42,573 bases of DNA, taken from assembly GCA_019749855.1 (NCBI GenBank), contig JAIEPI010000132.1, positions 1 through 42,573 on the forward strand, written 5' to 3'. Shown piece by piece: positions 41,285-42,291 of the stretch. Each line of letters starts with the position of its first letter. Positions within the stretch are counted from its first letter, which is position 1. This DNA is from Rickettsiales bacterium. Its GTDB lineage: Bacteria > Pseudomonadota > Alphaproteobacteria > Rickettsiales > UBA998. Made by a program: the position numbers and the translations under genes. Under the pieces are notes generated by a model, which saw only the letters and a list, made by a program, of their open reading frames with translations, had not been told where the DNA came from and did not search any database.

Positions 41285-41740
41285 CTACAGATAACGATTG
41301 GCGACACGCTGCAACTCCGCCTTGGCCACCAAGGCCCGGACCAGCTGTTCACGGTACAGGAGATAATAATGCTCCGCAGAACTGGCCACAGTAACCCCTT
41401 CATCCTGCCCGTCATCCATTCCTAACGCTTTGACAGCGTCCAAAAATCGCTGCTTTGGTTCACTCACCCCATGATCAAACGCTGCATCAAACAACATTTC
41501 TAATGTTTGGCTGAGATGCTGTTTGGGGTCTCCGTATGCACCCTCATTTTGTAGGTGGCGACGTATCTCTGGACTCGTCGTGCGATCCAGATGTTGAATC
41601 ACTTTGGAATGCGTATTGATTACTTCCTCAACAAGCACTCTAAGGGCAGCAGTGCCATAACCCTTGGATGGATCAAAAAACAGTGACTCTAACTTGCCGA
41701 GGTGCTCCTCAGAAACATCATCTTCCGGGCTTTCAACCAT
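41285..41740 (-). CDS. Orphan 151-aa acidic, probably helical protein
   Basis: ATG preceded by GGAG at 8-nt spacing, starting 15 nt after the T-tract of the hairpin at 41755-41785. No family recognised. Confidence 0.55.
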   Translation of the reverse strand: MVESPEDDVSEEHLGKLESLFFDPSKGYGTAALRVLVEEVINTHSKVIQHLDRTTSPEIRRHLQNEGAYGDPKQHLSQTLEMLFDAAFDHGVSEPKQRFLDAVKALGMDDGQDEGVTVASSAEHYYLLYREQLVRALVAKAELQRVANRYL

Positions 41741-41754
41741 TTACTTTTCTCCAT

Positions 41755-41785
41755 AAAAAAGCCCAACGCCATGACAGCGCCGGGC
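41755..41785 (-). terminator. Rho-independent terminator following the tuf 3' fragment
   Basis: 9-bp stem GCCCGGCGC/GCGTTGGGC. It has two G.U pairs that form only on minus-strand RNA, a 7-nt loop and then TTTTTT. Confidence 0.65.
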
Positions 41786-41807
41786 TTTCTCTTACATGCC
41801 AATCGAA

Positions 41808-41893
41808 CTATTCGATAATGCTGGCGACGACGCCGGCGCCGACGGTGCGTCCGCCTTCGCGGATCGCGAAGCGCAAGCCCTCATCCATCGCAC
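41808..41893 (-). pseudogene. Displaced 3' fragment of an EF-Tu gene (last 27 codons plus stop)
   Basis: The minus strand encodes [27 protein letters not shown]. It aligns with 42326-42413 (the true tuf end) at about 77/88 nt, with only one amino-acid change (K to S). Similarity stops abruptly at 41893/42413. Confidence 0.85.
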
Positions 41894-41948
41894 AGGACAT
41901 GTCTGAGCAAAACCAAAAAGGCAAGGGTTTTCGCTACGCATCACCCGC

Positions 41949-42239
41949 TTAAACACAACGGCCTGCGCCTTTTTGAGGCAGCGGCTTAACATGCCCCAGC
42001 GCATCATGAATCTGACGCAATGTTCCAAAGAAGGTGGTCCTGGCCTCGCTCGCGCTTACCGTGCCATATGCTTCAGGTAGGCTCTCGAGCCCACCTTTCA
42101 GTAAAAGAGGACATTTGATATCAAGAGCGTATTGCGCTCCTCCATTGTGATGGAGCGTCGCTGAGAAAGCCATTTCAGTACCCACCACTTCTTTAAGCTC
42201 TTGCGCCAGCAGGGCAATAGACAACGAGTCGTTATTCAT
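41949..42239 (-). CDS. Orphan 96-aa protein between tuf and the tuf 3' fragment
   Basis: ATG preceded by GAAGGGA about 8 nt upstream, starting 19 nt after the tuf terminator T-tract. No family recognised. Confidence 0.5.
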   Translation of the reverse strand: MNNDSLSIALLAQELKEVVGTEMAFSATLHHNGGAQYALDIKCPLLLKGGLESLPEAYGTVSASEARTTFFGTLRQIHDALGHVKPLPQKGAGRCV

Positions 42240-42257
42240 AACTTATCCCTTCCATCA

Positions 42258-42291
42258 TAAAAAATGCCCGGGTTAATTATCACCCGGGCAT
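42258..42291 (-). terminator. Rho-independent terminator of tuf
   Basis: Perfect 9-bp stem ATGCCCGGG/CCCGGGCAT with a 10-nt loop, followed by TTTTTT on the minus strand. It lies 37 nt after the tuf stop. Confidence 0.85.

What the first reader, a model, noticed from the sequence alone, without database searches (positions are those of the whole stretch)
41285..42291. Twice-repeated module 'tuf 3' end - hairpin terminator - SD - small orphan ORF' expanding the tuf to tRNA-Trp spacer
Reading the minus strand, there are two modules:
- Module 1: tuf end, perfect 9-bp terminator (42258-42291), then 19 nt later an SD and a 96-aa ORF.
- Module 2: tuf-end fragment, 9-bp terminator (41755-41785), then 15 nt later GGAG and a 151-aa ORF.

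The two terminators and the two ORFs are unrelated in sequence, but the layout is the same. Neither ORF has room for its own promoter. If expressed, each must depend on read-through of a terminator behind one of the most heavily transcribed genes in the cell.

This looks like a cassette-stacking site, comparable in logic to orphan-module arrays, in what is normally a tight ~100-bp tuf to tRNA-Trp junction. The two products have no recognisable family and could be immunity, anti-defence or regulatory proteins.
Basis: partly seen in the sequence, partly recalled or inferred. Interest (0 to 1): 0.65.

Follow-up and report, generated by a model that had tools for sequence, protein, structure and literature searches.

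The report
Duplicated tuf tail marks small insertion
Behind the translation-factor gene tuf, this uncultured freshwater alphaproteobacterium has one old clade-specific gene plus a recent 520-base insertion that carries an orphan gene and its own replacement copy of the end of tuf, which is an ordinary kind of recombination scar at an unusual target rather than a new cassette system.

Summary
Single contigs from independent metagenomes cross every junction with no differences.

The two "modules" are not equivalent:
- **ORF151 is a resident gene.** Relatives at 52%, 44% and about 92% (DNA) identity sit in the same slot, tuf, terminator, ORF, tRNA-Trp, secE, in three or four related lineages. It evolves fast but under constraint (pN 0.36, pS 0.78).
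- **ORF96 belongs to an insertion.** The block of ORF96, terminator 1 and the working tuf tail is found only in this lineage. ORF96 has no homologue among 1.84 billion representative proteins.
- **The two tuf tails diverged as working genes.** They differ at 10 bases but only one residue (P = 5e-5 under random change). The displaced tail matches the working tuf tail of the nearest relative.

My best reading (about 0.55) is a gene-end-restoring insertion of the kind prophage e14 makes in icd of E. coli, here reduced to 433 bp with no integrase. As precedent, I found phages whose attachment site is the last 12 codons of tuf plus a terminator.

Expression through terminator read-through is inferred, because no RNA data exist. 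The function of both proteins is unknown.

The parts
42328..42573 (-). The 3' part of the working tuf gene (EF-Tu residues up to the stop). It runs off the end of the contig.
   Evidence: It is 96% identical in protein to the tuf end of L001.
42326..42412 (-). Repeat copy M1: the last 27 codons plus stop plus 2 nt of the working tuf. I read it as probably brought in with the insertion.
   Evidence: M1 differs at 8 of the last 52 nt from the tuf tail of the nearest relative (run X10), whereas M2 differs at 2 or fewer.
42254..42296 (-). Terminator 1: a 13-bp GC-rich stem with an 8-nt loop and a U-tract. It is part of the inserted block.
   Evidence: (-29.5 kcal/mol, z = -5.5).
41949..42239 (-). 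ORF96, an orphan 96-aa ORF that is the only cargo of the insertion. It is probably coding, and its function is unknown.
   Evidence: There is no true homologue in 5.8 billion or 1.84 billion proteins. The codon score is the best of the six frames, and only 1.6% of off-frame windows reach it. The chance of an ORF this long in the shuffled insert is 4%. The AlphaFold model has pLDDT 59.
41893..41948 (-). The 56-nt 3' flank of ORF96. The true recombination junction lies at 41892/41893.
   Evidence: It weakly resembles the TTGCTT-N17-CAT box upstream of tRNA-Trp (P = 0.014-0.13). This is a lead only.
41806..41892 (-). Repeat copy M2: the displaced tuf tail (27 codons plus stop), with no upstream reading frame. 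It is probably the native tail.
   Evidence: A near-identical tail sits in intact tuf copies of a close relative in run X10.
41755..41791 (-). Terminator 2, the native tuf terminator. Its left arm, AGAAAGCCCGG, is shared with the tuf terminators of L001 and L256.
41285..41740 (-). ORF151, a clade-specific, acidic (pI 5.1), all-helical protein of unknown function. It is resident between tuf and tRNA-Trp.
   Evidence: pN 0.36 against pS 0.78; pLDDT 78. No structural neighbour was found.
41146..41221 (-). tRNA-Trp (CCA), the downstream boundary of the slot.
40968..40993 (-). A second copy of the tRNA-Trp 3' end, 171 nt downstream of the first. It is followed by what looks like the native terminator and the secE leader. 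This is a second gene-end duplication next door.
   Evidence: Elsewhere, recombinase genes lie directly behind a tRNA-Trp that follows tuf.

Best explanation
The locus has two layers.

**Old layer.** In this freshwater and drinking-water alphaproteobacterial clade, a small acidic helical protein gene (the ORF151 family) sits between the tuf terminator and tRNA-Trp. It has no promoter room of its own. It is most likely expressed at a low, fixed fraction of tuf transcription by terminator read-through.

**Recent layer.** In this lineage alone, a 520-bp block was inserted 84 nt before the native tuf stop codon. The block consists of a foreign tuf tail (M1), its own terminator, ORF96 and a 56-nt flank. 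Because the block carries a complete replacement tail, tuf stays intact. The native tail (M2), its terminator and ORF151 were pushed downstream.

This is the architecture left by an element that integrates into the 3' end of a gene and restores it. The model case is prophage e14 in icd of E. coli, with its icdC remnant. Here the element has been reduced to a 433-bp interior without a recombinase, either by decay or because the DNA entered by homology-anchored recombination.

**Shown:** the anatomy, its reality in independent samples, the empty site in relatives, the resident status of ORF151 and the constraint on it, the divergence of the two tails as working genes, and the existence of integrase-bearing phages that use the tuf tail as their attachment site.

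**Inferred:** the direction of the event, the enzyme responsible, read-through expression, and whether ORF96 is translated.
For: 1. **Repeat structure.** The 87-nt direct repeat covers exactly the last 27 codons, the stop and 2 nt. The proximal copy completes tuf, and the distal copy is a stump.
2. **Divergence pattern.** There are 10 base differences but 1 residue difference. P = 5e-5 for 10 random changes, and P = 0.02 even if only 5 of them fell in the dead copy. The tails therefore diverged mainly as functional genes, not by duplication in place followed by decay.
3. **Empty sites.** L001 and L256 show tuf, terminator, ORF151 homologue, tRNA-Trp, secE, with no ORF96 and no duplication.
4. 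**Nearest relative (run X10).** A 665-nt contig at depth 40 carries an M2-type tail, terminator 2 (3 differences in 115 nt) and ORF151 at 92% identity.
   - The M2-type tail continues upstream as tuf.
   - A second contig at depth 44 carries the same tail followed by an rpsJ-like start.
   - No ORF96 is present in that run.
5. **Terminator 2** shares its left arm with the relatives' tuf terminators.
6. **Real structure.** Contigs with 0 differences cross all junctions in runs from at least four studies.
7. **Precedent for tuf as an attachment site.**
   - At least nine IMG/VR proviruses have a tyrosine integrase gene 80-100 nt behind the tuf stop codon.
   - Six phage contigs carry only the last ~12 tuf codons plus a terminator. 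Where I read the flanks in full (L263), arm-type repeats sit on both sides and an integrase gene follows.
   - The layout is the same: tuf tail, then the element's own terminator, then the element.
8. **A second footprint next door.** The neighbouring tRNA-Trp shows the same kind of duplication. Recombinases sit right behind tuf-linked tRNA-Trp genes in proteobacterial proviruses.
9. **The e14, icd and icdC architecture** is described in PMC6379469 and PMC13626634.
Against: - There is no integrase, excisionase or arm-type repeat in the 433-bp interior, and no recombinase remnant anywhere in the window.
- The tuf-targeting phages I found infect low-GC hosts and duplicate about 36 nt, not 84. 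No alphaproteobacterial example was found.
- None of about 40 other loci with a tuf end shows a second tuf tail.
- Over 84 nt, M1 is closer than M2 to the tuf tails of L001 and L256 (6 and 11 differences against 11 and 16). On its own this could mean that M1 is the native tail. That comparison is not statistically decisive.
- The direction of the event rests mainly on the contigs of run X10. I could not link them to one genome other than by their similar depth.
- There are no RNA data of any kind.
Confidence: 0.55

Rival explanations
1. Two alternative occupants of the same slot were stacked. In one lineage the slot behind tuf held terminator 1 and ORF96. In another it held terminator 2 and ORF151. 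DNA from the ORF151 lineage (tuf tail, terminator 2, ORF151, tRNA-Trp, secE and beyond) recombined into an ORF96 genome. One crossover used homology in tRNA-Trp or secE. The other was an illegitimate join just behind ORF96. On this reading ORF96 is resident and ORF151 is imported.
For: - M1 and the upstream part of the window's tuf show the same divergence from L001 and L256 (about 7% and 9-13%), whereas M2 is about twice as divergent.
- The 56-nt flank behind ORF96 weakly resembles the conserved TTGCTT-N17-CAT box upstream of tRNA-Trp. That is what would be expected if ORF96 once lay directly before tRNA-Trp (P = 0.014 against L001).
- This model explains the same final structure and the same synonymous-only differences.
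Against: - No genome or metagenome shows ORF96 alone behind tuf. ORF96 has no relatives at all.
- The ORF151 family is ancestral to the whole clade by synteny, so this lineage should already have had it.
- The similarity of the flank is not significant against two of the three comparators.
Confidence: 0.22
2. Insertion with a long target duplication, or a local tandem duplication. The 87-nt tuf tail was duplicated in place when ORF96 arrived, giving identical copies. The working copy was later overwritten by gene conversion from the second tuf gene or by homologous import.
For: - Integrase-free insertions flanked by long target duplications have been described. I recall Nobusato et al. 2000 on restriction-modification units in Helicobacter, from memory.
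- An earlier unchecked note of this scan (e1-909204) describes a vapBC pair behind tuf between two tuf tails in an archaeon.
- tuf paralogues are known to undergo gene conversion.
Against: - It needs two events where one suffices.
- The repeat ends exactly 2 nt after the stop codon. That is what independent tuf genes would share, and it is an unlikely boundary for a mechanical duplication.
- The synonymous-only pattern requires the extra conversion step.
Confidence: 0.12
3. One reading: a dedicated site that stacks promoterless cassettes, integron-like in logic. Each cassette would consist of a tuf tail, a terminator, a Shine-Dalgarno sequence and an ORF, and would encode immunity or anti-defence functions.
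For: - The repeated layout is real.
- The content of the site varies among close relatives.
- A similar tuf-tail-bracketed cassette is noted in another genome (e1-909204, unchecked).
Against: - ORF151 is preceded by an intact tuf, not a fragment, in every relative, and it is inherited vertically.
- Only one insertion event is needed.
- There is no recombinase and no shared recombination site beyond tuf coding sequence.
- There are no defence or anti-defence hits.
- No second example was found in 80 genome loci.
Confidence: 0.06
4. Assembly chimera or chance. Two strains' tuf-downstream regions were joined by the assembler, and the ORFs are chance open frames.
For: - tuf is a classic assembly-breaking repeat. 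The contig ends inside it.
Against: - Single contigs from independent runs cross both junctions of the fragment with 0 differences.
- The longest exact match between the two tails is about 20 nt, too short to seed a false join.
- ORF151 is conserved under constraint.
Confidence: 0.03

Closest known systems
Cryptic prophage e14 (and phage 21) integrated in icd of E. coli K-12, leaving the icdC C-terminal pseudogene
   Same: - The element inserts inside the 3' end of an essential or central protein-coding gene and supplies a replacement tail, so the gene stays intact.
- The displaced native tail (163 bp in icd, 87 bp here) remains as a stump at the far end.
- The two tails differ mostly by silent or conservative changes (PMC6379469, PMC13626634; Hill et al. 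1989 as cited there).
   Different: - e14 is about 15 kb with an integrase and can excise. Here the interior is 433 bp with one orphan ORF and no recombinase.
- The target is tuf rather than icd.
- Excision was not tested.
Temperate phages whose attP is the tuf tail plus a terminator (IMG/VR contigs L259-L264; integrated forms L093, L101-L104, L108-L113, L116). I found no publication on them.
   Same: - The target gene is the same.
- The order is the same: tuf tail, then the element's own terminator, then element DNA. The restored tuf ends in element-encoded codons.
   Different: - The hosts are low-GC (Firmicutes-like).
- Only about 12 codons are duplicated.
- In L263, which I read in full, arm-type repeats flank the site and a tyrosine integrase gene follows. 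The window has none of these.
tRNA-gene-linked genomic islands and their decayed remnants (attL/attR made of the tRNA 3' end)
   Same: - The logic of gene-end restoration is the same.
- The neighbouring tRNA-Trp shows exactly this footprint: a 21-nt perfect repeat around about 150 bp.
- Recombinases sit behind tuf-linked tRNA-Trp genes in other proviruses.
   Different: - The target here is protein-coding sequence, so the two copies can drift at silent sites.
- No integrase is left.
Homology-facilitated illegitimate recombination during natural transformation (Acinetobacter, Streptococcus pneumoniae, Pseudomonas stutzeri; from memory)
   Same: One end is anchored in a highly conserved gene (tuf or tRNA-Trp) and the other end is joined without homology. 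This can add foreign DNA and leave a partial duplicate of the anchor.
   Different: It has been shown experimentally only in a few competent species. Competence is unknown for this organism, and the model does not predict that the insert should carry its own terminator.
Integron gene cassettes
   Same: Promoterless small ORFs would depend on an upstream promoter.
   Different: - There is no IntI and there are no attC sites.
- One of the two ORFs is a vertically inherited resident gene.

Membership tests
Gene-3'-end-restoring integration scar (e14/icd type attL-attR pair) | A direct repeat made of the target gene's 3' end flanks the insert. The proximal copy completes the gene and the distal copy is a stump. 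| tested here: met
   87 nt at 89% identity. The copy at 42326-42412 is in frame with tuf. The copy at 41806-41892 has no upstream reading frame.
Gene-3'-end-restoring integration scar (e14/icd type attL-attR pair) | The two copies have independent functional histories, differing at silent sites. | tested here: met
   10 base differences and 1 residue difference, P = 5e-5.
Gene-3'-end-restoring integration scar (e14/icd type attL-attR pair) | Relatives have an uninterrupted empty site. | tested here: met
   L001, L256 and the run X10 contigs show tuf, terminator, ORF151 homologue and tRNA-Trp, without ORF96 or a second tail.
Gene-3'-end-restoring integration scar (e14/icd type attL-attR pair) | A site-specific recombinase gene (or a recognisable remnant) lies between the repeats. 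| tested here: not met
   The interior is 433 bp with only ORF96. No Pfam, PHROGs or NCBIfam hit. tblastn with five integrases found nothing in the window.
Gene-3'-end-restoring integration scar (e14/icd type attL-attR pair) | The same target is used by intact, recombinase-bearing elements. | tested here: met
   Tyrosine-integrase phages have attP equal to the tuf tail plus a terminator. This was shown only for low-GC hosts, not for alphaproteobacteria.
Gene-3'-end-restoring integration scar (e14/icd type attL-attR pair) | The element excises or integrates by recombination between the repeats. | not testable with these tools
   No empty-site variant of the same strain was seen in runs X1, X2, X3 or X5. 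Testing this needs cultures or deep long reads.
   ORF151 homologues always follow an intact tuf in the same slot. ORF96 is found nowhere else. The only shared sequence is tuf coding sequence.
   The flanking genes are tuf, tRNA-Trp, secE and nusG.
Real protein-coding gene (ORF151) | Conserved in relatives with fewer amino-acid-changing than silent changes. | tested here: met
   52% and 44% identical homologues. pN 0.36 against pS 0.78, with dS saturated. Codon score is in the normal gene range. A confident helical model, pLDDT 78.
Real protein-coding gene (ORF96) | Conservation, coding statistics, or expression evidence. | tested here: inconclusive
   No homologues. The only hits are LRR-repeat noise. 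The codon score of 0.148 is the best of the six frames and is at the 11th percentile of true genes. Chance of such an ORF in the shuffled insert is 4%. pLDDT is 59. No RNA runs exist.

The most novel reading that the evidence does not exclude
The 520-bp block may be a complete, integrase-less mini-cassette rather than a decayed remnant. It would consist of a replacement tail for a very highly expressed essential gene, an insulating terminator and a single ORF translated from read-through transcripts. It would be moved in trans by tuf- or tRNA-targeting recombinases, or by homologous recombination in the universally conserved tuf sequence.

Two things keep this open. The neighbouring 171-bp tRNA-Trp insert has the same design. 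Together they would point to a general, undescribed way in which small selfish genes settle behind the most conserved genes of a cell.
Probability: 0.1. Interest if true: 0.7.

Novelty: new member of a known kind. Interest (0 to 1): 0.33.

Why it matters
- **Reading duplicated gene tails.** A duplicated gene tail with silent-site differences marks an insertion that rebuilt the gene, not a cassette array. Two adjacent orphans can have quite different histories: here one is an old resident and one a recent arrival.
- **A new protein family to test.** ORF151 defines an uncharacterised family that has been kept directly behind the tuf terminator across a freshwater and drinking-water alphaproteobacterial clade. 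It is a clean natural case for asking how much expression leaks through the terminator of one of the most transcribed genes.
- **tuf as a phage attachment site.** The work turned up temperate phages whose attachment site is the end of tuf itself. My literature searches found no description of this.

Tried and rejected
I could not examine the genome's second tuf copy or scan relatives' genomes.

**Searches for ORF151 relatives and for close relatives of the organism**
- Pattern-based searches for ORF151 relatives in metagenome contigs and genome contigs found nothing.
- A NusG-anchored scan of JGI metagenomes gave no close relative. The best hit was 74% identical.

**Function of the two proteins**
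- Pfam, PHROGs, PADLOC and NCBIfam gave only sub-threshold noise for both.
- Sequence searches of the PDB found nothing.
- Foldseek against the PDB and BFVD gave no hit better than E = 0.6 for either protein.
- The phmmer hits of ORF96 to 800-1700-aa NB-ARC/TIR-LRR proteins are summed matches to leucine-rich repeats. The pairwise BLAST E-value is 0.2, so I rejected them as homology.

**Other checks that led nowhere**
- An apparent second tuf tail in L055 lies inside an unrelated 392-aa ORF and is a chance match.
- Moraxella phage Mcat7 contains a tuf end, but only because the deposited prophage boundaries include host DNA. It was uninformative.
- No RNA run holds either ORF.
- Rfam found nothing above threshold except the tRNA.
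- The insert has no DNA match in the phage or plasmid collections.
- I tried to find the crossover point by comparing the upstream tuf sequence with run X10. It failed because tuf breaks into tiny shared contigs in complex metagenomes.
- Literature searches for tuf as an attachment site returned only author names, tuft cells and EF-P.
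Full report
**1. Observation**

All features lie on the minus strand, in this order.
- The working tuf gene ends at 42328.
- A strong hairpin with a U-tract follows (core 42261-42294, -29.5 kcal/mol, z = -5.5).
- ORF96 (41949-42239) starts about 19 nt later, behind GGAAGGGA.
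- After a 56-nt flank comes an 87-nt copy of the tuf tail (41806-41892). It is 89% identical to 42326-42412 and covers the last 27 codons, the stop and 2 nt.
- A second hairpin lies at 41755-41791 (-24.5 kcal/mol, z = -3.9).
- ORF151 (41285-41740) starts 15 nt after it, behind GGAG.
- tRNA-Trp (41146-41221), secE and nusG follow.

The window is an entire 42,573-bp metagenome contig that ends inside tuf. Earlier notes place it in an uncultured alphaproteobacterium. Its closest named relatives are MAGs UBA1002 and UBA998.

**2. The structure is real**

Assembler contigs of independent public runs match with no differences across every junction.
- Run X5 (biofilter, 2019) has one 633-nt contig covering 41539-42171. 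It spans ORF151, hairpin 2, the tuf stump, the junction and ORF96.
- Run X8 (drinking water, 2021) covers 42024-42355, spanning ORF96, hairpin 1 and the working tuf tail.
- Run X1 (freshwater, 2015) covers 41290-41847 and 41826-42233.
- Run X2 (drinking water, 2023) covers 41193-41641 and 41903-42281.

The same strain therefore occurs in several water systems, and the arrangement is not a chimera.

**3. ORF151 is a resident, clade-specific gene**

- It has a 152-aa homologue (52% identity) and a 146-aa homologue (44% identity).
- Both lie in freshwater metagenome contigs in exactly the same slot: intact tuf, terminator, ORF, tRNA-Trp, secE, nusG.
- A fourth version, 92% identical in DNA, is in run X10.
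- NusG identities:

| Pair | NusG identity |
|---|---|
| window and L001 | 0.95 |
| window and L003 | 0.95 |
| L001 and L003 | 0.98 |
| window and L256 | 0.89 |

- These identities place the gene at the base of the clade. MAG UBA1002 (L003), sister to L001, has only a terminator between tuf and tRNA-Trp, which is most simply a loss.
- Against L001, pN is 0.36 and pS is 0.78. Silent sites are saturated. Neighbouring genes have dN/dS of 0.02-0.07. The gene is therefore fast-evolving but constrained.
- The protein is acidic (pI about 5). The model is all-helical (pLDDT 78, pTM 0.73).
- Motifs conserved in all three homologues are LFFDPS, FDHG and DGQD.
- It has no family or fold neighbour.
- In every lineage its start codon lies 14-25 nt after the tuf terminator. 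Dependence on read-through is thus a conserved feature of the family, although it remains inferred.

**4. ORF96 is an orphan inside an insertion**

- It has no homologue in 5.8 billion clustered proteins.
- phmmer against 1.84 billion representatives found only summed matches to leucine-rich repeats in plant-type NLR proteins. A pairwise comparison does not support these.
- Coding statistics are moderately favourable. The annotated frame scores best of the six. Only 1.6% of off-frame windows reach its score, although it is at the 11th percentile of true genes. An ORF this long arises in 4% of shuffles of the insert.
- The structure model is poor (pLDDT 59) and has no neighbours.
- I treat ORF96 as probably coding, but this is unproven.

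**5. What the two tuf tails say**

- They differ at 10 bases, nine of them silent, and give one K to S change.
- For 10 random substitutions, the probability of one or fewer residue changes is 5e-5. It is still 0.02 if only five of the changes had fallen in a dead copy. The tails therefore diverged as parts of working tuf genes, not by duplication in place followed by decay.
- The similarity stops 2 nt after the stop codon, as expected for two independent tuf genes with unrelated downstream DNA. The only true novel joint is at 41892/41893.
- **Which tail is native?**
  - In run X10, a contig at depth 40 has an M2-type tail, terminator 2 and ORF151, with 3 differences in 115 nt.
  - The M2-type tail continues upstream as tuf coding sequence.
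  - A second contig at depth 44 has the same tail followed by what looks like the rpsJ start.
  - ORF96 is absent from that run.
  - Terminator 2 shares its left arm with the tuf terminators of L001 and L256.
  - This makes M2, terminator 2 and ORF151 the native arrangement, and M1, terminator 1 and ORF96 the newcomer.
- **A counter-indication.** M1 is closer than M2 to the tails of L001 and L256 (6 and 11 differences against 11 and 16 in 84 nt). The numbers are too small to decide the question, and this keeps the reverse scenario alive.

**6. Mechanism**

An insertion 84 nt inside an essential gene is only tolerable if the incoming DNA supplies a new tail. That is the hallmark of elements that integrate into gene 3' ends. 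The model case is prophage e14 in icd, which leaves the icdC stump (PMC6379469, PMC13626634).

I asked whether tuf is ever used this way.
- In IMG/VR, many proviruses have tuf at their very edge.
- In at least nine of them, a tyrosine integrase gene lies 80-100 nt behind the tuf stop, convergent with it.
- Six phage contigs carry only the last ~12 tuf codons ((R)TVGSGVVADIIE*) plus a conserved hairpin. In L263, which I read in full, arm-type direct repeats sit on both sides and the integrase gene follows. That is a textbook attP.
- These phages rebuild tuf with their own codons and their own terminator. The order of parts is the same as in the window.
- They come from low-GC hosts, and I found no paper describing them.

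The neighbouring tRNA-Trp shows the same footprint.
- A perfect 21-nt repeat of its 3' end brackets about 150 bp that carries its own terminator. The repeat is scored as 26 nt at 92% identity.
- In proteobacterial proviruses, a tyrosine or serine recombinase gene lies directly behind a tRNA-Trp that follows tuf.

The tuf, tRNA-Trp, secE junction is therefore a genuine landing zone. What is missing here is any recombinase or remnant of one. The block is either a heavily decayed element, a passenger moved in trans, or the product of homology-anchored recombination with foreign DNA.

**7. Rivals**

- **Slot-allele stacking (0.22).** ORF96 is resident, and the ORF151 block was imported with one crossover in tRNA-Trp or secE. 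It has some support from the tail distances and from a weak resemblance of the ORF96 flank to the promoter-like box upstream of tRNA-Trp.
- **Long target duplication followed by gene conversion (0.12).** This needs an extra event.
It fails because ORF151 is inherited vertically, and because no recombinase or cassette-specific site exists.
- **Artefact or chance (0.03).** This is excluded for the structure and for ORF151.

**8. How the locus probably works now**

All of this is inferred.
- tuf transcripts mostly end at terminator 1.
- The fraction that reads through carries ORF96 and its Shine-Dalgarno sequence.
- A further fraction must pass terminator 2 to reach ORF151. ORF151 should therefore be expressed less here than in relatives, unless the ORF96 flank holds a promoter.
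- One weak sigma-70-like match overlaps terminator 1. The count of such matches does not exceed that in shuffled sequence.
- No RNA data exist to test any of this.

**9. Verdict**

- This is a new member of a known kind: a gene-end-restoring insertion scar. It is notable for its target (tuf), its tiny size and the neighbouring second scar.
- One orphan ORF of uncertain reality rides in it, next to an uncharacterised but genuine clade-specific gene.
- Interest is modest.

Noticed in passing
L263:9640-11056, and also L259-L262 and L264. Integrated forms: L093:1060-2494, L104:680-2138, L109:200-1555.: These temperate phages have an attP made of the last ~12 codons of tuf plus a conserved hairpin (GCAAGGGTTACA..TGTA.CACCTTGC). 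In L263 arm-type repeats flank it (TTTATCTACTTTTTATCTACT on both sides) and a tyrosine integrase gene follows. In the integrated form the integrase gene lies 80-100 nt behind the tuf stop codon. I found no publication on tuf as a phage attachment site.
   Followed up: partly
window 40968-41164: The 3' end of tRNA-Trp occurs twice, 171 nt apart (21 nt perfect). The first copy is followed by its own strong terminator (41109-41146). The second is followed by what looks like the native terminator (40947-40970) and the secE leader. L001 and L003 lack the insert. This is the same gene-end-duplication footprint as at tuf.
   Followed up: partly
L085:1571-2823, L083:2470-3966, L130:1400-3205: In these proteobacterial proviruses, tuf is followed by a gene-bearing spacer of about 1.2 kb and then tRNA-Trp. 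A recombinase gene lies directly behind the tRNA: a tyrosine integrase 14 nt after it in L085, and serine recombinases in L083 and L130. The tRNA-Trp behind tuf is therefore a used attachment site.
   Followed up: partly
window 41222-41284; L001:679-733; L256:1459-1518: A conserved TTGCTT-N17-CAT(T/A) box lies about 45 nt upstream of tRNA-Trp in three lineages. It is a likely tRNA-Trp promoter sitting just behind the ORF151-family stop codon. A weak look-alike (TTGCCT-N17-CATGTC) lies behind ORF96 at 41893-41926.
   Followed up: partly
Loci L022, L023, L045 (Phenylobacterium) and L058, L074-L076 (Brevundimonas): In other alphaproteobacteria the tuf to tRNA-Trp spacer holds ordinary lineage-specific genes. 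Phenylobacterium has a secreted repeat protein of about 280 aa. Brevundimonas has a membrane protein of about 444 aa that looks like a CBS-domain (CorC/HlyC-type) transporter by eye. I did not scan these with Pfam.
   Followed up: no
L256:1595-1740: Between tRNA-Trp and secE, this relative carries a different insert of about 150 nt (CATCCTGAGCGAAGCGCAGCGGAGTCGAAGGATG...). It looks like a dispersed palindromic repeat element, so this side of the tRNA also varies.
   Followed up: no
Runs X1-X8 laid on window 41193-42355: The same strain, with 0 differences over all contigs laid, is present in freshwater, biofilter and drinking-water metagenomes from at least four separate studies between 2015 and 2023. 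This suggests a widespread clonal lineage in engineered water systems.
   Followed up: no
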